Assembly (NCBI GenBank): GCA_964350785.1
Contig: CAYGMD010000003.1
Location: 1-61,624, forward strand
Length of the DNA stretch: 61,624 bases
Direction of reading: 5' to 3'
Source: an uncultured Acidobacterium sp.
GTDB lineage: Bacteria > Acidobacteriota > Vicinamibacteria > Vicinamibacterales > UBA2999
Shown here piece after piece: positions 1,484 to 34,831 of the stretch (the first letter of the stretch is position 1; the number at the start of each line of letters is the position of its first letter). A model generated the notes under the pieces. The model was not told where the DNA came from, did no database searches, and saw nothing but the letters and a program-made list of their open reading frames with translations. The translations under genes and the position numbers were made by a program.

Positions 1484-1569
1484 GACAACCTCGCCGACCA
1501 AGTCGGCGACGCGGCTGGCACGCGTCGCTGAGGACCAGTCCAGCGAGCGACCCGAACGTTACAGCTGGA

Positions 1570-6019: not shown

Positions 6020-6599
6020 TCAACGGCAGATGAGGTGCGGGGGCGTCGCGCGGATGCGGGGGCATCCCGTCTTCGAGGTCCACGCCGAGCCCGTCGGCCA
6101 CACGGTTGATGTAGTTGAAATAGCTGACGATCTGCACCGCATCCGAGACGGCGCGGTCATCAAAACCCTCAGCTCGAAGCGCCACGACATCGTCCTGGAT
6201 CATGGCTGCCGGCTCGGCGGTCAGCTTGACGGCGAAGGCGAGCAGCGCGCGGTCGGCGGGCCCCAGCGGTGCCTTCGTCCAGTCCGTTTTCACCTGCTCC
6301 ACCAGCTCCGGGTCGTCGACCTCGGCACGGAGGTCGTCGGCATGCGCCTCGGTTCAATAGTGGCAGCCGTTGGTCCGCGAGACGACCACGGCCAGCATCT
6401 CTCGCTGCGCCCTGGTGAGGGGCGACCGCCCGCGCATCAGGGCGGCGTAGAGCGCCGTCGAGTGCTTCATCGCCGGCGGGTTGAGGCTCTTGATTCGAAT
6501 GATCTGCCACACCTTGCCCGCGCGGGCCAGCGCGGCGTCGTACTCGGCTCGCAACAACCCGGTGGCTTCGGCCACCGGCTTCAGATCGATCCAGGCCAT
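6015..6599 (-). CDS. AhpD/CMD-family selenoprotein (CxxU), Sec at UGA 6354-6356
   Basis: ORFs 6354..6599 and 6015..6302 are in frame: NGCHY-TGA-TEAHADD. The UGA sits at the second Cys of the AhpD CxxC; downstream hairpin present. Confidence 0.88.
6317..6336 (-). other. Putative bacterial SECIS hairpin
   Basis: CGACCUC-CGUGCC-GAGGUCG, 7-bp stem; loop starts 24 nt after the UGA. Confidence 0.7.
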
Positions 6600-6788
6600 C
6601 TCGCTTCTCCTTCCTTAGCATGACACCGATGCTGAATCCTCATCGGCTCTTGGTGGGTGTCCTGCTCGCCGCGGAGCCATGTGGCGTGTGGGCCTGGTCG
6701 CGCGGCCCGCTGCGGTGACGATCACCGCCGAGGCTGGGCCGTTTCTTGACCAGGCCGTTGTGTCGCGCTGATATCGCGACGGATACGC

Positions 6789-9520: not shown

Positions 9521-9536
9521 AGTGAGGCGCGTCACA
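9521..9536. promoter_or_regulatory. CRP-type box AGTGA-ggcgcg-TCACA (class II position)
   Basis: Centre 9528.5 is 41.5 nt before ATG 9570; -10-like TATCGT at 9558-9563. Confidence 0.7.
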
Positions 9537-9569
9537 GCAGGGATGGAGTGGCGCCCCTATCGTTGGGCG

Positions 9570-10547
9570 ATGGCCCACGTCGTTGAGTTCTTCTACAGCG
9601 AACACTGTATCGGCTGTCCGGAGGCGCGGCAGGTCGTCAGACAACTGGCGGCGGCGAGGCCGGATATCGCGATCGCCGAGTTCGATATCGCGACGCACAT
9701 CGATGAAGCCGGCCGGCATGGCTTGATTGCCACGCCGGCAGTGGTCATCGATGGCGGCCCGGCGCTCTATGGGATTCCTCGGATTTCGGATCTGGCCGCC
9801 CGGTTGGACGGACCGTCGGCTCGGGCTCGCGCGAGTGGTGAACGGCCGCTTATACTGTCGGGGATGGCGGCCCACACCAAGCTTTGGTACCTGCAGCATT
9901 TCCGTTTGCTGGAGGCCCTCACCGACGTCCAGAAGCGCGCCGTCGAGAAGATGACGCGCATGCTGGAAGTCAAGCGCGGCCAGCGCATTTACCTCCCGGG
10001 CGATCCGAGTGACCAGATCTTCCTGCTCAAGACCGGGGTGGTGAAGATTTCGACAGGCGGCGCCGAACAAGATACCATCCTGGCGTTGCTCTATCCGGGC
10101 GACATCTTTGGTGAGCTCGCCATGCTCGACGAGTCGCCGCGCGATCACATCGCCGAGGTCGTGGAAGACACCGTCCTCTGCGCGCTCAATCGAGACATGC
10201 TGCTGCAGATGATCCAGCAGTCGCCTGCGCTCGGCTACCAGATCACCAAGCTCATGGGACTGCGGTTGCGCCGCCTGCGAACGCGGGTCGAGGAACTGCT
10301 GTTCAAGAGCGCGCATGCCCGCATCGCCCACACCCTGCTTGACCTCGCCGCCGACTACGGCGTCAAAGACGATGATGGGGTGCTGATTCCGATTCGCTTG
10401 AACCAGGGCGACCTGGGCAACCTGGTCGGCCTGGCGCGTGAGACGGTGAACATCGTTCTGCAGGACCTGAAGCAGCGAGGCCTCGTCGAGACCAGCCGCC
10501 AGAACATCCGCCTCAAGAGTCCGGAGCTGCTGCGCGCGGTCGTGTAG
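9570..10547 (+). CDS. Thioredoxin-like (CxxC) domain fused in frame to a CRP/FNR regulator
   Basis: FYSEHCIGC...ATPAVVIDG, then from Met 9864 a cNMP-binding domain (FGELAMLDESPR) and HTH (LVGLARETVN). No stop between the two parts. Confidence 0.8.
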   Translation: MAHVVEFFYSEHCIGCPEARQVVRQLAAARPDIAIAEFDIATHIDEAGRHGLIATPAVVIDGGPALYGIPRISDLAARLDGPSARARASGERPLILSGMAAHTKLWYLQHFRLLEALTDVQKRAVEKMTRMLEVKRGQRIYLPGDPSDQIFLLKTGVVKISTGGAEQDTILALLYPGDIFGELAMLDESPRDHIAEVVEDTVLCALNRDMLLQMIQQSPALGYQITKLMGLRLRRLRTRVEELLFKSAHARIAHTLLDLAADYGVKDDDGVLIPIRLNQGDLGNLVGLARETVNIVLQDLKQRGLVETSRQNIRLKSPELLRAVV

Positions 10548-15071: not shown

Positions 15072-15087
15072 TGTGACCAGCATCACA
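15072..15087. promoter_or_regulatory. Perfect CRP-type box TGTGA-ccagca-TCACA
   Basis: Between divergent pagL and ECF sigma 1. Confidence 0.7.
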
Positions 15088-15125
15088 CACGCCGCCCGAT
15101 GAATCGCCGAGAATGTCCCTTGATT

Positions 15126-15773
15126 ATGTCCACGTACTCCGACCCGGGCGGCGGCAGGGCGTCCTCGGACGACCTGGCAACCGTCCAGCAGTTGTTGGCG
15201 GGGGACGAAGCTACGTTCACAGCCGTGGTGGAGCGCCTCCACCCCTCCCTCATCAGGTTCGCCCTCCTCTTTGTGGCGAGTCGGGAAGTCGCCGAGGAAG
15301 TCGTGCAGGACACCTGGGTCGCGGTGCTGAACGGCTTGTCCTCGTTCCAGGGCCGCTCGGCGCTCAAGAGCTGGATCTTCAGCATCGCCGCGAACCGGGC
15401 GAAGACCCGCGCCATCCGCGAGAGGCGAACCATCACGTTCTCGGAGCTGTCGGCACCCGGGGACGATGAACCCGCGGTCGATCCGGATCGGTTCTCGAGC
15501 GGCGGCGCGTGGTCGGCGCCACCGGGCCGATGGGATCGCGACACGCCGGAGAAACTCCTGCTCCGTCAGGAGGCGCTCGCCGTGGTGGCCGCCGCCATCG
15601 CGGAATTGCCACCCAGCCAGCAGGCGGTCGTCACCCTCCGCGATGTCGAGGGGCTCGACGCGGCGGAAGTCTGTAACGTTCTCGAGATTTCGGATACCAA
15701 TCAGCGGGTTCTGCTGCACCGGGGCCGATCGAAAGTACGATCGGCACTCGAGCGGTATACGCTGGAAGGGTAG
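15126..15773 (+). CDS. ECF sigma factor (ECF-1)
   Basis: Region 2 EEVVQDTW...FQGRSALKSWIFSIAAN; region 4 NQRVLLHRGR. Confidence 0.9.
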   Translation: MSTYSDPGGGRASSDDLATVQQLLAGDEATFTAVVERLHPSLIRFALLFVASREVAEEVVQDTWVAVLNGLSSFQGRSALKSWIFSIAANRAKTRAIRERRTITFSELSAPGDDEPAVDPDRFSSGGAWSAPPGRWDRDTPEKLLLRQEALAVVAAAIAELPPSQQAVVTLRDVEGLDAAEVCNVLEISDTNQRVLLHRGRSKVRSALERYTLEG

Positions 15774-16017: not shown

Positions 16018-17100
16018 CTACTGGCCGGGCGCGCGTTCGCGGTCCAGCGCCTTCAGGCTTACCGTCCACGTCAGCGGCACCGTCTGCGGGTTGAAACACA
16101 CCTTGTCGTCGCACGCCTGGTAGTTCAGGATCCCCTCGATGGTGACGCTGGTGGCGCCCTTGAGCGCGGCCTGGCCGGCGGCCGACGAGTCGATCATCAC
16201 GTCCTGCACAATACGGAACGGCTTCTGGTACACCTGCACGTGTTCATCCAGCGGCTTGAAGTGGTAGTCCTCTGATTTGGGGTACTGAGCGGCCCGGACG
16301 ACGAGGCCCGGCTTGGCTTTGACCGTCAAGACGATCGGCTTGTAACCGGTAACGCCGGGCGCATAGACATGCACTCGCGGCGCGGGAGTGATGTCCAGCA
16401 CGATGGAGAAGTGGGTGCCGGGCGCCGCCGCCTGGTCGGTCGTGTACGAGGTGATCTCGACATTCGGTGATGACACCTTGGTCGCCGGCACATTCACCTT
16501 GCTGCCCATCCGAACGAGCACGCTCGACATCGTATTGCGCTCCTGGTAGCCGTCTTCGAAGAAGCGGGACGTCACCACGCCCCGGCGGTCAACGATGAAC
16601 ATGCCGGGAAACGGATATCCGAACAGGTTGTTCGACGGATCCACCGCCGTATTGAGGAGCCCGTACCGCTTGATGACGGCCGAGCCGGCATCTGACAACA
16701 GGGGAAACGTGATCTGCCGGCGTGCCGCGAACTCGGCGAGTACGGGAACCGGGTCGTAGGTGATCACGGCCAACTCGTAGCCGTTCTGCCTCACGTCGGC
16801 CAGCCGTCCCTGCATTTCGACGAGTTGCGTCTTGCAATAGGGACACCAGGACGCGGACCTCGAGAAGGTCAGCATGAGGCCCTTGGGGCCCATCAAGGAT
16901 TCCAGGGTGCGGGCACGCCCCGTCTGGTCCCGGAGGGAGAACGCCGGCAGCTTGTCACCGACCTGCGGGCCGAGCTTTCGCACGTCCGGCGCGGACGCAG
17001 CGGCGGCCGATTGCTCGGCGACCAGCGGTGACGAGACGGCGCCGGAGGCGATCACGCCACCGATCAAACACACACAGAAAGCGCACAGGCGAGCGAGCAT
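16018..17100 (-). CDS. Exported redoxin (AhpC/TSA-like, CxxC) + DsbD N-terminal-like domain; Cys paralog
   Basis: Signal peptide, SWCPYCKTQL, C-terminal YQACDDKVCF. Confidence 0.85.
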   Translation of the reverse strand: MLARLCAFCVCLIGGVIASGAVSSPLVAEQSAAAASAPDVRKLGPQVGDKLPAFSLRDQTGRARTLESLMGPKGLMLTFSRSASWCPYCKTQLVEMQGRLADVRQNGYELAVITYDPVPVLAEFAARRQITFPLLSDAGSAVIKRYGLLNTAVDPSNNLFGYPFPGMFIVDRRGVVTSRFFEDGYQERNTMSSVLVRMGSKVNVPATKVSSPNVEITSYTTDQAAAPGTHFSIVLDITPAPRVHVYAPGVTGYKPIVLTVKAKPGLVVRAAQYPKSEDYHFKPLDEHVQVYQKPFRIVQDVMIDSSAAGQAALKGATSVTIEGILNYQACDDKVCFNPQTVPLTWTVSLKALDRERAPGQ

Positions 17101-17148
17101 CGAATTCTCCTTCGGGTATCAGACTCGGTTTGGTGCCGGGAGACTGGA

Positions 17149-17748
17149 CTAGCGGGGTGGTGGCGCGGCAATGCGTTCGATGGCAACGCCCGGCGCCAGG
17201 CCGGCCAGCACGCGTACCTCCAACTCTGTGGTTTTCGCGTCGATCGCCCCCATGTGCCGCTTCACGATCCGGCCGTCACGATCGACCAGCAGCGTCATCG
17301 GCAGCGCGTGTACACCACCGAACAACCGGTCCAGTTCCGGCGTCATCATCACAATCGGAAAATCCATCCTCATGGCCGCGACGAAATTCTTGACCGGCGT
17401 GAGATCGCCCTCGTCCGCCGAGATACCGATGACCCGCAGGTGCTCGCGATACTTGACCTGGAGCCGGAGCAGGTCCGGGATCTCCACCCGGCAGGGACCG
17501 CACCAGGTCGCCCAGAAGTTCACGAGCGTGACCTGGCCGCGCCACTGGCCGGACCGCACCGTCTGACCATCCAGCGAGCGTGCGGTGAAGGCCGGCAGCA
17601 GGCCGGGGCTGGCGAGGAACTGCACCGAAGTGGCGCCGGCGGCCGGCGGTGCCGGCGAGCCTGATACCGCCGATTGGGCCCCCAGGTTGACCCCAACAAT
17701 TAGCAGGCCGGCCGCAATCGACGCGCGCAGAATGTGTTTTTTTTCCAT
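17149..17748 (-). CDS. TlpA-family thiol-disulfide oxidoreductase
   Basis: VNFWATWCGPCRVEIP, HALPMT. Confidence 0.9.
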   Translation of the reverse strand: MEKKHILRASIAAGLLIVGVNLGAQSAVSGSPAPPAAGATSVQFLASPGLLPAFTARSLDGQTVRSGQWRGQVTLVNFWATWCGPCRVEIPDLLRLQVKYREHLRVIGISADEGDLTPVKNFVAAMRMDFPIVMMTPELDRLFGGVHALPMTLLVDRDGRIVKRHMGAIDAKTTELEVRVLAGLAPGVAIERIAAPPPR

Positions 17749-17769: not shown

Positions 17770-18417
17770 TCAGCCGATGATGGTGAACGTCTGCACGGCA
17801 AGGCTGCCCGCCTCGCGAAACAGCCGGGCACGCACCCGCACGGCCTTGCCCAGCAGCGCCGTGTCGTGAATCAGGTCGGCCGATGCCGGCTGCTCGACGA
17901 TGTTCCAGATGCGACCGTCACTTGTGGCAATCGCGCCGTGGTGGCCCGTCCGCTGGCACATCGGCGGTTCGCCGTGCCGTTTCTCGAGCTCACAGTCGCG
18001 GCACACCAGTTGCCCTTCGAGCACGATCTCCGTCGGCCCGGACCACCTGGCCACGGCGGAATCCATCGCGCCAACCACGGCGTCGGGAATCTGCCCACTA
18101 CTGGCCGCCGCCAAGCCGGCGCCGACAACCAGCACGAGCGACGCGGCGATCGCCACGCGACGCCCGGCGGCGGGCAGGTCGCGCGGCACCCACCACGGCC
18201 GCAGTGACCGCCGGACCCGCTCGCCAAGATTCGCGGGAGGGCTGTGCGCGAACACCGCCTGCCGTACCGCGCCGCGCAATCGCTCGAGATGGGCCACCAC
18301 CCGCGCGCAGGCCGCGCACTCGGAGAGGTGCGCGTCGGCGGCGGCGACGGCCTCCGCTGACAACTCGCCGTCGACGTAGCAATCGAGCAACTCGCGAAAC
18401 TGTTTGCAATCCATCAT
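17770..18417 (-). CDS. Membrane-anchored zf-HC2 anti-sigma with Cys/His-rich extracytoplasmic domain
   Basis: HLSECAAC, one TM segment, then VCRDCELEKRHGEPPMCQRTGHH. Confidence 0.8.
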   Translation of the reverse strand: MMDCKQFRELLDCYVDGELSAEAVAAADAHLSECAACARVVAHLERLRGAVRQAVFAHSPPANLGERVRRSLRPWWVPRDLPAAGRRVAIAASLVLVVGAGLAAASSGQIPDAVVGAMDSAVARWSGPTEIVLEGQLVCRDCELEKRHGEPPMCQRTGHHGAIATSDGRIWNIVEQPASADLIHDTALLGKAVRVRARLFREAGSLAVQTFTIIG

Positions 18418-18959
18418 GATTTCCGTTCCTTGGCGATCGGCGCGCGCGCCATCGGCGGCGCCGAGACTCGCCCGCGCAGCAGGCGCGCCAGCATGCGCCG
18501 GCCGCGGTTGATTCGAGACATCACAGTGCCGATCGGGCAGCCCATCGCGGCCGCAATCTCCTGGTAGGTCAGCTCTTCAACATCGGCCAGCAATACGGCG
18601 AAGCGGAACGCCTCGGGTAACTGCCCGAGCGCCCACGTCATGTCCGCGGACACTTCCTCGCGGAGGAAGTCACCCTCCCAGTCGTAGTACGGCTCCGTCC
18701 TGACTTCCTCCACGTCGCCGACCGGCAGTTCCAGCCGGGTCTTTCGCCACTGCGTGACCCAAGCGTTGTGAAGAATGCGACACAGCCAGGCGCGGCAGTT
18801 GGTCGCTGGATCGAACTGGTCAAAATGCGCCCACGCCCGCAGGAACGTCTCCTGGGTGAGGTCGTCGGCCAGTCGCGCACCGCCGAGTTGCCAGGCCAGC
18901 CGATAGACGGCCGTCAGGTGTGGCATTGCGACGGCCTCGAAGTGCTGTCTGGTGCTCAT
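18414..18959 (-). CDS. ECF sigma factor (ECF-2)
   Basis: DDLTQETFLRAW, GTVMSRINRGR; overlaps the anti-sigma start by 4 nt. Confidence 0.9.
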   Translation of the reverse strand: MSTRQHFEAVAMPHLTAVYRLAWQLGGARLADDLTQETFLRAWAHFDQFDPATNCRAWLCRILHNAWVTQWRKTRLELPVGDVEEVRTEPYYDWEGDFLREEVSADMTWALGQLPEAFRFAVLLADVEELTYQEIAAAMGCPIGTVMSRINRGRRMLARLLRGRVSAPPMARAPIAKERKS

Positions 18960-19061
18960 CTCAACACGTCGGCGGTTGACTCCAGTTATCCTAAAGAACG
19001 CAGGGTCCCGGCCGGATATTCCTGGCCTCTCGTTCGCCCCGGCCCCGACCCATTCTGACCA

Positions 19062-19087
19062 GTCACGCCCGGGGTCGTTGTGTTACG
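19062..19087 (-). promoter_or_regulatory. ECF-type promoter CGTAAC-N14-CGTGAC upstream of ECF-2
   Basis: Likely autoregulatory promoter. Confidence 0.65.
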
Positions 19088-19094
19088 GATCACA
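19079..19094. promoter_or_regulatory. CRP-type box TGTGT-tacgga-TCACA overlapping the ECF -35
   Basis: One mismatch to consensus; covers 19082-19087. Confidence 0.6.
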
Positions 19095-19193
19095 CGCCGC
19101 GCACTTCGCCATTGACTGCGGCAACCGCACGGCCATACTGGCGACAGCCGCGTGGCACACTCGCCGGCGCGGGCCGGATGAAAAGGTGGGCTA

Positions 19194-20216
19194 ATGCGCG
19201 CGATGTTGATGTGGGTACTCTTCGCCGGCACGATGTCGGCTCAACTATCGTGGACCGAGCAGGCCACGATCGATGGCGATCCGGTGATGCGTGGCCTGCC
19301 CAAAGACGCCATTCCCGCGATTGACAAGCCCGTCTTCGTGCCCGTCGCCCAGGCGAAGTACATGCAGGACGAGGAACCGGTAATCGGCGTCGCGTTCGGC
19401 GCCGTCGCCCGCGCCTACCCCACCTGGCTGCTCAACGGGCACGAGATCGTCAACGACACCATCGCGGGGCGCGCGATTACGGTGACCTGGTGACCGCTCT
19501 GTTACACGGGCATCGTGTATGCCCGCACGGTCGCTAACCGCGAACTGACCTTCGGCGTGTCCGGCATGCTCTGGCGCGACAACCTGGTCATGTACGACCG
19601 CCAGACCGACTCCTGGTGGGCACAGGCCACCGGCACCGCCATTGCCGGGCCCCTCAAGGGACAAGTGCTGACCATTCTGGCCTCCGATATGATGACCTGG
19701 AAGCAGTGGCGCAGTCTGCACCCGGGCACGGTGGTCTTGTCCAAGGAGACCGCGGCCGGTGCCGACGGCACGAGCGACCGCTATGACGGCTATCACGCGC
19801 GCGGCGGAATCGGCGTCACAGGCCGCACGACGTCCGCCGGTGCTCTCGATCCGAAGGCGCGGGTGCTCGGTTTCCGCATCGAGGGCCGGCCCTACGCCGC
19901 AGCGCTCGATGTACTGAAGGCCAATCCGGTACTGCCGGTGGCGAGCGTGCCCGGTGGCCTGATCGTCGTCGCCACGCCCGACCGGTCAGGCGCCAAGGTG
20001 TTCGCCGCGGGCGGAAGGGCCTTCGAGGCGGCGGGCACAGAGGGCGACCGGACGACGATCCGAGACCGTGAGACCGGATCGCGGTGGGACGGTTATCAAG
20101 GCCTGGCTGTGTCCGGGCCGCTCAAGGGGCAGCAGCTCGCCGCCACGCCCGCGTTCGTGTCGTACTGGTTCTCGTGGCGGTCGTTCTTTCCGGCCACCGA
20201 GATCATACGGCGGTAG
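19194..20216 (+). CDS. DUF3179-family selenoprotein (UxxC), Sec at UGA 19491-19493
   Basis: ITVTW-TGA-PLCYTGIVY joins ORFs 19194..19493 and 19515..20216; PKDAIPAID, SGMLWRDNLVMYDRQTDSWW. Confidence 0.88.
19507..19525 (+). other. Putative SECIS hairpin
   Basis: CGGGCAU-CGUGU-AUGCCCG; loop 20 nt after the UGA. Confidence 0.75.
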
Positions 20217-21479: not shown

Positions 21480-21930
21480 AAAGGCGTCAGGCGCGGGAGC
21501 CTCCGTAACGAATGCGCCCTCCGGCCCTCTTCGAACGGGTTCTGCTCGAGAAACTCTGGAACGACCTCGACCGGAGCGCGATTGACATTTGCGACTACCA
21601 CACACGATTCAAGCGCGAGCTGGATGCCCGGGCAACGGACGGGCCGGCCCGCGCAGCGGGTCGATTCTGAGCAAGATGATCCGCAGTGGCATCGGCGACG
21701 CTCACGCGGTGCCCGACATCCTCGGCGCCCGGTTCGTCGTCGGTAATCGGCGGCAGGCGTATGCGCCCGAACGACGACTGGTCCAGGCGCTCGGTGGGCC
21801 GTTCCGATGGCGAGACCGTGTCGACACGCTTGGCGGCGACGAGGACTTTCCAGAAGACATCTTCGGGTTGCATGCGCACGCCTGAGCGTCTCACGGGATC
21901 ACTGGCGCGTCGAAGTCCGCCGCGACTACT

Positions 21931-33631: not shown

Positions 33632-33647
33632 TGTGAGCGGAGTCACA
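33632..33647. promoter_or_regulatory. Perfect CRP-type box TGTGA-gcggag-TCACA (class II position)
   Basis: Centre 33639.5; TATGAT at 33670-33675; GTG 33680 / ATG 33683. Confidence 0.75.
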
Positions 33648-33682: not shown

Positions 33683-34831
33683 ATGAAAGGTGCGGCGAGT
33701 TTCTGGTCAATGCTGGCGCTGCTGTGCGCCCCGCTGTTCTCGCAGGTGCCGGCGCCGCGGGCGCCCGTGGACGTGGCACGGCTCGGACCGCAGGTCGGCG
33801 AACACGTTCCTGGATTCAGCCTGACGGATCAGTCGGGCAAGACGTGGACTCTGTCCTCCGTCATGGGCCCGAAGGGCGCCATGATCGTCTTCTACCGATC
33901 GGTGGATTGGTGACCGTATTGCAAAACGCAGCTCGTGGAGCTGCAAGGACGGGTGGACGAACTCACGGCGCAAGGCCTCGGCCTAACCGCCATCAGCTAT
34001 GACTCGCCGGAGCTGCTGGCGGATTTCAGCCGCCGGCACCGGATCACGTTTCCGCTGCTCTCGGACACCGGCTCGGCGACGATCACGACCTACGGCATTC
34101 TCAACACCGTCGCCGACGAAGCGCTCGAGACCCGACCCGGCAACGCCACCCTGCGGGAGGATGTGAAGAAGTACGTGGCGACCAACGGATCGCGCAGCGT
34201 CGCCGAGCTGACGAAGGGAACGCCGTTCCCCGGTACGTTTGTCGTCGATCGCGAGGGTCGCGTCACGGCGCGATTCTTCGAGGAGTACTATCGCGAGCGG
34301 AACACGGCATCGAGCATCCTGCTCAGGCTCGGAAACGGTGCGCCGCCGGTCGCCGCCACGCGGATCGCGGCTGCACATCTCGACATCACGGCGTATGCGA
34401 GCGACTCGACGGTCTCGCCCGGCACACGCTTCGCGCTTGCCGTGAGCGTCGTGCCCCGGCCGCGCATCCACGTCTACGCCCCGGGCGCCGATGCCAACGG
34501 GTACCGTGTCGTGTCCTTGAGCGTCGCGCCGCAGCCGTTCGTGCGGACGCTGCCGATTCGTTATCCCCCTTCGGAGATCTACGATTTCAAGCCGCTCGAC
34601 GAGCGCGTGCCGGTGTACCGGAAGGCGTTCACCTTGCTACGGGAAGTGGTCGTCGAGGTCACCTCCGAAGCGGAGCGGGCCCTGCGCGATCGGAAGACCC
34701 TGACGATGACCGGCGTCCTCGAGTATCAGGCCTGCGACGACAAGGTGTGTTTCACTCCGGCAACGGTGCCGCTGACGTGGACGGTCGCGCTCACACCAAA
34801 CATTACCGAGCGCCCGAATCGTCCGCAGTGA
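33683..34831 (+). CDS. Exported redoxin + DsbD-N-like selenoprotein (UxxC), Sec at UGA 33911-33913
   Basis: FYRSVDW-TGA-PYCKTQL aligns with FSRSASW-C-PYCKTQL of 16018..17100. Confidence 0.9.
33928..33944 (+). other. Putative SECIS hairpin
   Basis: GCAGCUC-GUG-GAGCUGC; loop about 20 nt after the UGA. Confidence 0.75.

What the first reader, a model, noticed from the sequence alone, without database searches (positions are those of the whole stretch)
19062..19194. CRP box sits directly on the ECF auto-promoter -35
TGTGT-tacgga-TCACA (19079-19094) covers the minus-strand CGTAAC (19087-19082). Bound CRP should block ECF-2 transcription, while lying about 60 nt upstream of a possible -10 (CATACT 19134-19139) for the divergent Sec-DUF3179 gene. 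This is the physical basis of the proposed toggle.
Basis: partly seen in the sequence, partly recalled or inferred. Interest (0 to 1): 0.75.

Follow-up and report, generated by a model that had tools for sequence, protein, structure and literature searches.

The report
Shared CRP-type operator between divergent promoters
A conserved 16-base binding site for a thioredoxin-fused CRP-type regulator lies between a selenoprotein gene and a stress sigma-factor operon in a soil/groundwater acidobacterium. It does overlap a sigma-factor promoter element, but not the one that sigma factor uses for itself, so the proposed on/off toggle is only partly right.

Summary
**Observation.** It is correct. TGTGTTACGGATCACA lies at 19079-19094, CGTAAC on the minus strand at 19087-19082, and CATACT at 19134-19139.

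**The box is a real operator.**
- CRP-type boxes are strongly concentrated in this window: 10 of the genome's 33 sites, all apparently intergenic.
- The box and its 39-nt spacing to CATACT are kept in five genomes.
- The likely binder is the island's own thioredoxin-CRP fusion (9570-10547). Its recognition helix is RETVN, and most of its orthologues carry a box just upstream of their own gene.

**The ECF part is half right.**
- CGTAAC-N17-GACT matches a GTAAC-type ECF promoter motif enriched in the window (6 found, 0.64 expected). The overlap with the box is conserved.
- It is not the ECF-2 autopromoter. Two relatives keep box and motif but lack ECF-2 and its anti-sigma.
- ECF-2 is SigH-like. 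All nine ECF-2 operons examined carry GGAAT-N18/19-GTT, here at 19022-18997, 57 bp from the box.

**Best reading.** One operator is shared by two older divergent promoters.
- Rightward it sits at a class I-like position (about -60) for Sec-DUF3179.
- Leftward it sits at a class II-like position (-41.5, CAGAAT) on the TlpA operon promoter, overlapping the ECF-type -35.
- The ECF-2 module, with its own promoter, lies downstream of that leftward promoter.

The direction of leftward regulation is unresolved. This is an ordinary kind of element in an interesting island.

The parts
19079..19094 (.). CRP-type operator TGTGTTACGGATCACA (9/10 of TGTGA-N6-TCACA)
   Evidence: Conserved in G027, G025, L024 and L025.
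19112..19117 (+). -35 TTGACT of the Sec-DUF3179 promoter
   Evidence: Sigma-70 scan. TTGAC is kept in 4 of 5 genomes.
19134..19139 (+). -10 CATACT of the Sec-DUF3179 promoter; places the box centre at about -59.5 to -61.5
   Evidence: GCCATACTG is invariant in 5/5 genomes, always 39 nt after the box.
19194..20216 (+). Sec-DUF3179 gene (in-frame UGA at 19491-19493, motif TW-U-PLC), preceded by SD AAGGTGG at 19183-19189
   Evidence: Pfam PF11376, E = 2.9e-81 when TGA is read as U. UxxC DUF3179 is a listed selenoprotein family (PMC9312934).
19082..19087 (-). CGTAAC, a GTAAC-type ECF -35 lying inside the box
   Evidence: Part of YGKAAC-N17-GACY: 6 in the window against 0.64 expected. GTAAC/GGAAC is kept in 5/5 genomes.
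19061..19064 (-). GACT, the -10-like partner of CGTAAC (N17 spacing)
   Evidence: GACTGGT is kept with N17 spacing in the window, L024, L025 and G027, but not in G025.
19052..19057 (-). CAGAAT, a sigma-70-like -10 located 21 nt from the box edge (box centre -41.5, class II geometry)
   Evidence: nAnnAT is kept at 21-22 nt in 5/5 genomes. The same geometry is seen at 9521, 15072, 30341 and 33632, and in 8 regulator orthologues.
18997..19022 (-). GGAAT-N18-GTT, SigH-type promoter: the probable ECF-2 auto-promoter (P2)
   Evidence: The only match to GGAAT-N17-CGTT in the window. The GGAAT-N18/19-GTT motif is present upstream of 9/9 ECF-2/anti-sigma operons and of two ECF paralogues in the genome. 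ECF-2's closest solved homologue is M. tuberculosis SigH.
18414..18959 (-). ECF-2 sigma factor (SigH-like)
   Evidence: Pfam Sigma70_r2/r4_2; PDB SigH, E = 5e-25; NCBIfam SigH_actino is among the best hits, below its cut-off.
17770..18417 (-). Anti-sigma-2 (zf-HC2, one TM helix, Cys/His periplasmic domain)
   Evidence: Full-length homologues are absent from 193 other genomes of the family but common in metagenomes next to DUF3179, redoxin and DsbD genes.
16018..17748 (-). TlpA-like thioredoxin (17149-17748) and redoxin-DsbD_N (16018-17100): the ancestral cargo of the leftward promoter
   Evidence: Pfam. In G027 and G025, TlpA is the gene directly divergent from Sec-DUF3179.
9570..10547 (+). 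Thioredoxin-CRP fusion regulator, the probable binder; its own box is at 9521-9536
   Evidence: Pfam Thioredoxin_3 + cNMP_binding + HTH_Crp_2. Helix ARETVNIVL against M. tuberculosis CRP SRETVNKAL. A box lies upstream of 12 of the 13 orthologue loci scanned. Within the genus it is found only in G000, G027 and G025.

Best explanation
The palindrome at 19079-19094 is a working operator for the island's own thioredoxin-fused CRP-family regulator (9570-10547). Two divergent promoters share it, and both are older than the ECF-2 genes.

- **Rightward.** A sigma-70-type promoter (TTGACT-16-CATACT) drives the selenoprotein gene Sec-DUF3179. The box centre is at about -60, a class I-like activating position.
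- **Leftward.** This is the ancestral promoter of the TlpA/redoxin operon. The box centre is 41.5 nt from the start predicted by a -10-like CAGAAT. That is the same class II geometry this regulator uses at its own gene, at ECF-1 and at the Sec-redoxin gene.
- **Overlap.** On the left side the box also covers a GTAAC-type ECF -35 (CGTAAC-N17-GACT). This motif recurs across the island and is read by a sigma factor other than ECF-2, possibly ECF-1.
- **ECF-2.** ECF-2 and its anti-sigma lie downstream of this composite promoter. They carry their own SigH-type auto-promoter, GGAAT-N18-GTT (19022-18997), which the box does not touch.

The most likely outcome is that the regulator co-activates both directions, or swaps which holoenzyme uses the upstream leftward promoter, while ECF-2 auto-amplifies independently.

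**Shown:** the sequences, their spacing, their conservation, the motif enrichments and the gene co-occurrence.
**Inferred:** binding, transcription start sites, the sign of regulation and the identity of the GTAAC-reading sigma factor.
For: **Box enrichment and spacing**
- Enrichment and N6 spacing specificity.
- 10 of 33 genome sites lie in the window, apparently all intergenic.

**Regulator identity**
- The RETVN helix resembles M. tuberculosis CRP.
- Trx + cNMP + HTH architecture.
- Within the genus, the regulator occurs only in the three genomes with the most perfect boxes (7, 5, 5 against 4 or fewer).
- A box lies upstream of 12 of 13 regulator orthologue loci scanned. In eight fusion orthologues it has box, 21-22 nt, TAnnnT, 6-8 nt, start codon.

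**Rightward promoter**
- It is the only sigma-70 hit in the region.
- GCCATACTG and the 39-nt gap are invariant in 5/5 genomes while the sequence between diverges.

**Leftward class II geometry**
- CAGAAT, CAGGAT, GAGGAT, CATGAT or CACGAT lies 21-22 nt from the box in 5/5 genomes.
- ECF-1 promoters in G000, G025 and G027 have box, 21 nt, (G/C)A(G/A)AAT, 7-11 nt, ATG.

**The promoter region predates ECF-2**
- G027 and G025 have TlpA directly divergent from DUF3179. They keep the box and have no ECF-2 or anti-sigma-2.

**ECF-2's own promoter**
- GGAAT-N18/19-GTT is present in 9/9 operons, in the window's orthologues and in two paralogues.
- ECF-2 is SigH-like. SigH-type promoters are GGAA(T/C)/GTT (PMC6338062).

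**GTAAC motif**
- 6 found against 0.64 expected. N17 spacing is kept in relatives at two loci.
Against: - There are no binding data and no transcription start sites. No RNA runs hold this sequence.
- The box deviates from consensus at one base, and all five genomes keep that deviation. It is exactly the base that makes AAC of the ECF -35. This suggests selection for the ECF element, and it fits competition or occlusion as well as it fits activation.
- The leftward -10-like hexamers are weak (3-4 of 6 matches). They could simply be the initial transcribed region of the ECF-type promoter.
- Class I spacing comes out at -59.5 with a 7-nt -10-to-start distance, which is 1-2 bp off the canonical -61.5.
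- The cNMP pocket reads R-D-H where CRPs have R-S/T, so the effector is unknown.
- A few TGTGA-N6-TCACA sites are conserved in genus members that lack the regulator. Another protein with similar specificity may therefore exist.
Confidence: 0.55

Rival explanations
1. Modified toggle. The regulator bound at the box occludes the GTAAC-type ECF -35 and so shuts off the ECF-dependent upstream promoter of the leftward operon, while activating Sec-DUF3179 from about -60. The sigma factor displaced is not ECF-2 but the one that reads the GTAAC regulon.
For: - The box covers CGTAAC, and AAC is kept in 5/5 genomes at the cost of a consensus half-site base.
- The GTAAC-N17-GAC motif is enriched and conserved at two loci.
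- GTAAC is a documented ECF -35 type (PMC6338062, PMC3511200).
Against: - The same box-to-(-10) spacing is used at promoters where the regulator almost certainly activates.
- G025 keeps the box and GGAAC but has lost the GAC partner.
- ECF-2 could still be expressed from GGAAT-N18-GTT, so the operon would not be switched off.
Confidence: 0.25
2. CGTAAC is the -35 of the ECF-2 auto-promoter, and CRP binding blocks ECF-2 autoregulation.
For: - The motif lies upstream of ECF-2, and ECF sigma factors are often autoregulated.
- SigH-type sigma factors can weakly use GTAAC-type promoters in Corynebacterium (PMC6338062).
Against: - G027 and G025 keep the motif without ECF-2.
- 9/9 ECF-2 operons have GGAAT-N18/19-GTT instead. 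L026, L027 and L121-L124 have no box at that promoter.
- ECF-2 is SigH-like.
Confidence: 0.07
3. The box is bound by one of the genome's four other Crp/Fnr paralogues, or by an unidentified protein, rather than by the Trx-CRP fusion.
For: - Five Crp/Fnr genes are present.
- Some perfect boxes, for example TGTGAAGGATATCACA, are conserved in genus members that lack the fusion.
Against: - Only the fusion has the R-E-T-V recognition helix.
- Island boxes co-occur with the fusion.
- A box precedes most fusion orthologues.
Confidence: 0.1
4. The palindrome is a chance match with no function.
For: Outside the window, sites with up to 1 mismatch are no more frequent than base composition predicts: 23 found against roughly 50 expected from my own mononucleotide estimate.
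Against: - The window has 10 sites, against about 0.6 expected from base composition (my estimate).
- The site is conserved in five genomes within otherwise diverged intergenic DNA, with invariant spacing to both flanking promoter elements.
Confidence: 0.03

Closest known systems
Mycobacterium tuberculosis CRP (Rv3676) and E. coli CRP operators, with class I (-61.5) and class II (-41.5) promoter architecture
   Same: - A 16-bp TGTGA-N6-TCACA palindrome.
- Recognition helix RETVN; the best PDB hits are the mycobacterial CRPs (E about 1e-28).
- Box centres at about -60 and -41.5 relative to -10 elements.
- A site upstream of the regulator's own gene.
   Different: - The regulator carries an N-terminal CxxC thioredoxin domain.
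- The cNMP pocket reads R-D-H instead of R-S/T.
- The regulon is confined to one accessory selenoprotein/thiol-redox island rather than being global.
- Several target promoters appear to be leaderless.
- Binding and the effector are untested.
SigH/SigR (ECF12-type) autoregulated promoters, GGAA(T/C)-N17/18-GTT
   Same: - ECF-2 is most similar to M. tuberculosis SigH.
- It has a zf-HC2 anti-sigma.
- GGAAT-N18-GTT precedes all nine operons examined.
   Different: - The anti-sigma is membrane-anchored with a periplasmic Cys/His domain, not a soluble RsrA/RshA.
- NCBIfam SigH models match below their cut-offs.
GTAAC-type ECF promoters: Corynebacterium SigD (GTAAC(A/G)...GAT) and Caulobacter sigmaF (GTAACC-N16-CGAA)
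   Same: - A -35 of (C/T)GTAAC with a short G-A-containing -10 17 nt downstream.
- The motif precedes envelope and metal-stress genes, including a bufferin-type precursor (38718), as sigmaF does in Caulobacter (PMC3511200).
- Overlapping sigmaA and ECF promoters are documented in the SigD regulon (PMC6338062).
   Different: - The -10 reads GAC(T/C), not GAT or CGAA.
- The cognate sigma factor is not identified.
- Neither ECF-1 nor ECF-2 carries the motif as an obvious auto-promoter facing its own gene.

Membership tests
CRP-type operator (CRP/FNR family, TGTGA-N6-TCACA class) | Inverted repeat TGTGA / TCACA with a 6-bp spacer | tested here: met
   9 of 10 core bases match. The single mismatch (A to T in the left half-site) is kept in all five genomes.
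CRP-type operator (CRP/FNR family, TGTGA-N6-TCACA class) | A cognate regulator with a CRP-type recognition helix (R-E-x-x-x-R/K) is encoded in the genome | tested here: met
   Gene 9570-10547 has helix ARETVNIVL. R and E are present; the third basic residue is Ile, so the match is partial at that position.
CRP-type operator (CRP/FNR family, TGTGA-N6-TCACA class) | Sites are non-random, intergenic and conserved at orthologous promoters | tested here: met
CRP-type operator (CRP/FNR family, TGTGA-N6-TCACA class) | Demonstrated protein-DNA binding and effector dependence | not testable with these tools
   Needs EMSA or footprinting. The organism is known only as a metagenome-assembled genome.
Class I CRP-dependent promoter | Box centred near -61.5 (or -71.5, -82.5, -92.5) from a mapped start site | tested here: inconclusive
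   The centre is 47.5 nt upstream of the first base of CATACT. That gives -59.5 to -61.5 depending on the start site, which is not mapped.
Class II CRP-dependent promoter | Box centred at -41.5, overlapping the -35 region, with a -10 about 21-22 nt from the box edge | tested here: inconclusive
   The geometry is met on the minus strand (CAGAAT at 19057-19052) and conserved in 5/5 genomes. However, the hexamer is weak and the start site is unmapped.
   The element is present without ECF-2 in G027 and G025. ECF-2 operons carry GGAAT-N18/19-GTT instead.
GTAAC-type ECF promoter | -35 GTAAC and a fixed-distance -10, recurring before several genes, with conserved spacing in relatives | tested here: met
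   YGKAAC-N17-GACY occurs 6 times against 0.64 expected, with 0 of 100 shuffles reaching 6. One hit (21806) is probably coding. N17 spacing is kept in L024, L025 and G027, and at locus 1563 in G027.
GTAAC-type ECF promoter | An identified cognate sigma factor that initiates there | not tested
   ECF-1 is a candidate only by proximity. A scan upstream of all 26 sigma-70-family genes gave no convincing auto-promoter of this type.

The most novel reading that the evidence does not exclude
The site is a sigma-switch node in a three-input circuit.

- A redox-sensing thioredoxin-CRP regulator activates ECF-1 from a leaderless class II promoter.
- ECF-1, or another GTAAC-reading ECF sigma factor, drives the island's envelope and metal-stress genes.
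- At this one composite promoter the regulator's operator is superimposed on the ECF -35. Regulator binding would then exchange ECF-holoenzyme for sigma-70-holoenzyme at nearly the same start point, forming a feed-forward loop.
- At the same time it would turn on the divergent selenoprotein gene.
- A laterally acquired SigH-like ECF-2 module, placed just downstream, would add a third, self-amplifying input.
Probability: 0.2. Interest if true: 0.6.

Novelty: new member of a known kind. Interest (0 to 1): 0.4.

Why it matters
Vicinamibacterales are abundant soil and groundwater Acidobacteriota, few of them cultured, and I found no published work on their transcriptional wiring.

This site gives a concrete, testable promoter map for a selenoprotein gene and a thiol-redox envelope operon. 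The map has one operator, two divergent promoters, and two distinct ECF promoter types arranged in tandem.

It assigns the CRP-type boxes to an unusual thioredoxin-fused regulator.

The element itself is a conventional kind of operator. Its value lies in anchoring the logic of the island, not in a new mechanism.

Tried and rejected
- **Rfam scan of the window.** Only two tRNAs were found, with no RNA element at the site.
- **Public RNA runs.** All runs holding this sequence are DNA metagenomes, so there is no start-site evidence.
- **Anti-sigma-2 orthologues in 193 other genomes of the family.** None were full-length, so the ECF-2 overlap could not be tested within the family. I turned to metagenome contigs instead.
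- **A box-free TlpA orthologue in the genus as a comparator.** TlpA is as island-restricted as the regulator, so none exists.
- **Finding the GTAAC-reading sigma factor by autoregulation.** I scanned upstream of all 26 sigma-70-family genes. The only hit (C45) lies at or inside the coding start, so I rejected it.
- **A strict genome-wide regex for the ECF-2 promoter (GGGAAT-N17-CGTT).** It missed the window's own AGGAAT and returned apparently coding hits, so I dropped it.
- **The GTAAC-N17-GACTGG version of the motif.** It is not enriched genome-wide (4 found, about 1.8 expected), so I relied on window enrichment and conservation instead.
- **Literature on Vicinamibacter plus Crp.** Nothing relevant was found.
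- **The perfect box in L005 (G048).** It is not at an orthologous position; there DUF3179 follows TlpA in one operon.

Full report
**1. Observation**

The sequence is as described.
- TGTGTTACGGATCACA occupies 19079-19094.
- Its minus strand reads TGTGATCCGTAACACA, so CGTAAC lies at 19087-19082.
- CATACT lies at 19134-19139.

The region is the 234-bp spacer between two genes.
- On the minus strand is an ECF sigma gene, ECF-2 (18414-18959). It is followed by a zf-HC2 anti-sigma, a TlpA-like thioredoxin and a redoxin-DsbD_N protein.
- On the plus strand is a DUF3179 gene (19194-20216) with an in-frame UGA. Reading TGA as U gives PF11376 at E = 2.9e-81.

Titles of near-identical relatives identify the organism as a Vicinamibacterales (Acidobacteriota) metagenome-assembled genome.

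**2. Is the box more than chance?**

Yes.
- With up to one mismatch, the pattern gives 10 strand-matches in the window against 1.68 expected. None of 100 shuffles reaches 10.
- In the whole 5.08-Mb assembly, perfect TGTGA-Nx-TCACA occurs 7 times at N6. It occurs 0-1 times at every other spacing from N2 to N11.
- Of 33 sites with up to one mismatch, 10 lie in this window, which is 1.2% of the genome.
- By a crude GC3-based gene map, all ten appear to lie outside genes.
- Outside the window such sites are no more common than base composition predicts. The regulon is therefore essentially this island.

Genes next to the window's boxes:
- three of the four selenoprotein genes: the CMD/AhpD-like gene at 6614, Sec-DUF3179, and the Sec-redoxin gene at 33683;
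- a MerA-like flavoprotein reductase;
- ECF-1;
- a sigma-54 activator;
- a Crp-family gene.

**3. Who binds it?**

The window encodes a fusion of a CxxC thioredoxin domain to a cNMP-binding domain and a Crp-type HTH (Pfam).
- Its recognition helix is ARETVNIVL. The best PDB hits are the mycobacterial CRPs (SRETVNKAL; E about 1e-28), which bind this palindrome class by my own knowledge.
- The genome's other four Crp/Fnr paralogues lack the R-E pair.
- Among 37 genomes of the genus, only G000, G027 and G025 have this regulator. They are also the three with the most perfect boxes: 7, 5 and 5 against 4 or fewer.
- Twelve of the 13 orthologue loci scanned across the family carry a box just upstream.
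- In eight fusion orthologues the layout is box, 21-22 nt, TAnnnT, 6-8 nt, start codon. That is a class II, apparently leaderless, auto-activating layout.
- The same geometry recurs at ECF-1 in three genomes. Within the window it recurs at 33632 and 30341.

**4. The rightward promoter**

- An independent consensus scan finds a single sigma-70-type promoter in 18900-19260: TTGACT-16-CATACT on the + strand. Shuffles give 0.0.
- I aligned five orthologous spacers: the window, L024, L025, G027 and G025. GCCATACTG is invariant. The gap from box to CATACT is exactly 39 nt in all five, although the intervening sequence diverges.
- This places the box centre at -59.5 to -61.5, the class I range.

**5.

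- G027 and G025 keep the box but have no ECF-2 and no anti-sigma-2. In them the divergent gene is TlpA itself.
- Full-length anti-sigma-2 homologues are absent from the 193 other genomes of the family.
- The box and its flanking promoter elements therefore belong to an older TlpA/DUF3179 divergent pair. The ECF-2 module sits just downstream of the leftward start, and DNA homology with G027 begins at 19046. Whether it was inserted here or lost from the relatives cannot be told.
- ECF-2 is most similar to M. tuberculosis SigH (E = 5e-25).
- I fetched eight further ECF-2/anti-sigma operons from metagenomes, with 47-89% anti-sigma identity. All nine operons, this one included, carry GGAAT-N18/19-GTT upstream.
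- In the window this promoter lies at 19022-18997. It is the only match to GGAAT-N17-CGTT in 61 kb. Two ECF paralogues elsewhere in the genome have the same motif.
- It is the SigH-type consensus, -35 GGAA(T/C) and -10 GTT (PMC6338062).
- It lies 57 bp from the box, so a regulator bound at the box cannot occlude it.

**6.

- CGTAAC is not random. (C/T)G(T/G)AAC-N17-GAC(C/T) occurs six times in the window against 0.64 expected, and none of 100 shuffles reaches six.
- The sites are at 1563, 15023, 19087, 38718 and 39561, plus one probable coding hit at 21806.
- The N17 spacing is kept while the spacer sequence diverges. This holds at 19087 in L024, L025 and G027, and at 1563 in G027.
- GTAAC is a documented ECF -35 type: SigD uses GTAAC/GAT (PMC6338062), and Caulobacter sigmaF uses GTAACC-N16-CGAA (PMC3511200).
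- The single base at which the box departs from consensus is kept in all five genomes. It is exactly the base that makes AAC rather than ATC.
- G025 reads GGAAC at this position, which is still an ECF-type -35.
- The overlap of the operator with an ECF-type -35 is therefore real and conserved. Because the element survives without ECF-2, another sigma factor must read it. ECF-1 is a candidate only by proximity; a scan upstream of all 26 sigma-70-family genes found no convincing auto-promoter of this type.

**7. Sign of regulation**

Two readings of the left side remain.

(a) Class II activation of sigma-70 RNAP:
- the box centre is 41.5 nt from the start predicted by CAGAAT (19057-19052);
- nAnnAT is kept at 21-22 nt in 5/5 genomes;
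- the geometry is identical to the regulator's own promoters.

(b) Competition with an ECF holoenzyme at GTAAC/GACT.

The data fit (a) slightly better, since G025 has lost the GAC partner but keeps the hexamer. The conserved AAC argues that the ECF element matters too. Both may operate as overlapping promoters, as documented for SigD/SigA promoters (PMC6338062). Only start-site mapping and in vitro transcription can decide.

**8. Verdict**

The operator is real, the class I position for Sec-DUF3179 holds, and the overlap with an ECF-type -35 holds.
- That element is not the ECF-2 auto-promoter, and a simple block of ECF-2 is unlikely.
- The element is a new member of a known kind, a CRP-type operator shared by divergent promoters.
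- The more unusual features are the thioredoxin-fused regulator and the island-restricted, selenoprotein-centred regulon. Neighbouring findings cover those.

Noticed in passing
window 18997-19022 (-); also G000 contigs C255 and C311: A SigH-type promoter, GGAAT-N18-GTT, precedes ECF-2 and two ECF paralogues elsewhere in the genome. It also precedes all eight metagenomic ECF-2/anti-sigma operons examined. This defines a second ECF promoter class, distinct from the GTAAC class.
   Followed up: yes
window 9521-9572; L032, L033, L038, L041-L044: The Trx-CRP gene appears to be leaderless and positively autoregulated. The layout is box, 21-22 nt, TATCGT-like -10, 6-8 nt, ATG/GTG, and eight orthologues across the family keep it. 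The true start is therefore Met at 9570, not 9543.
   Followed up: yes
window 15072-15128; L042 11780; L041 3145: ECF-1 has a perfect box followed after 21 nt by GAGAAT, GAAAAT or CAGAAT, then ATG 7-11 nt later, in three genomes. The CRP-type regulator probably activates ECF-1. In G025 and G027, ECF-1 directly follows the regulator gene. G000 has about 4.5 kb inserted between them (HATPase fragment, gnd, zwf, pagL).
   Followed up: partly
L121-L124, L026, L027 (metagenome contigs): The anti-sigma-2 family (zf-HC2, one TM helix, periplasmic Cys/His domain) is repeatedly found next to DUF3179, redoxin-DsbD_N, DsbD or DUF302 genes in unrelated contigs. This suggests a dedicated envelope thiol or metal stress module.
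   Followed up: partly
G000 C77:15649, C68:7967 and same-genus genomes: A few perfect boxes (TGTGAAGGATATCACA, TGTGAAACTTCTCACA, TGTGACGAAGATCACA) are conserved across genus members that lack the Trx-CRP regulator. Either another protein shares this specificity, or these lie in conserved coding or RNA sequence.
   Followed up: no
window 1495-1530 (-) and 1599-1657: Downstream of the GTAAC-type promoter at 1563 lies a perfect inverted repeat, GCGACGCGtgccagcCGCGTCGC, also present in G027. On the other side of the 1579 box, a 59-nt block with the hairpin GACCCTCGGtccGAGGGT is 92% identical in G025.
   Followed up: no
window 19491-19524: The UGA of Sec-DUF3179 is followed after 14 nt by a 6-bp stem, GGGCAT-CGTGT-ATGCCC, with GU in the loop. 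This is a plausible bacterial SECIS. Three other in-frame UGA genes are present: CMD at 6354 and 20553 (C-H-Y-U), and redoxin at 33911 (W-U-P-Y-C).
   Followed up: partly
window 10247-10270 (residues FGELAMLDESPRDHIAEV of the regulator): The cNMP pocket keeps G-E and R. After the Arg, however, it has Asp-His where cAMP-binding CRPs have Ser/Thr. cAMP may therefore not be the effector, and the fused CxxC thioredoxin domain may be the sensor.
   Followed up: no
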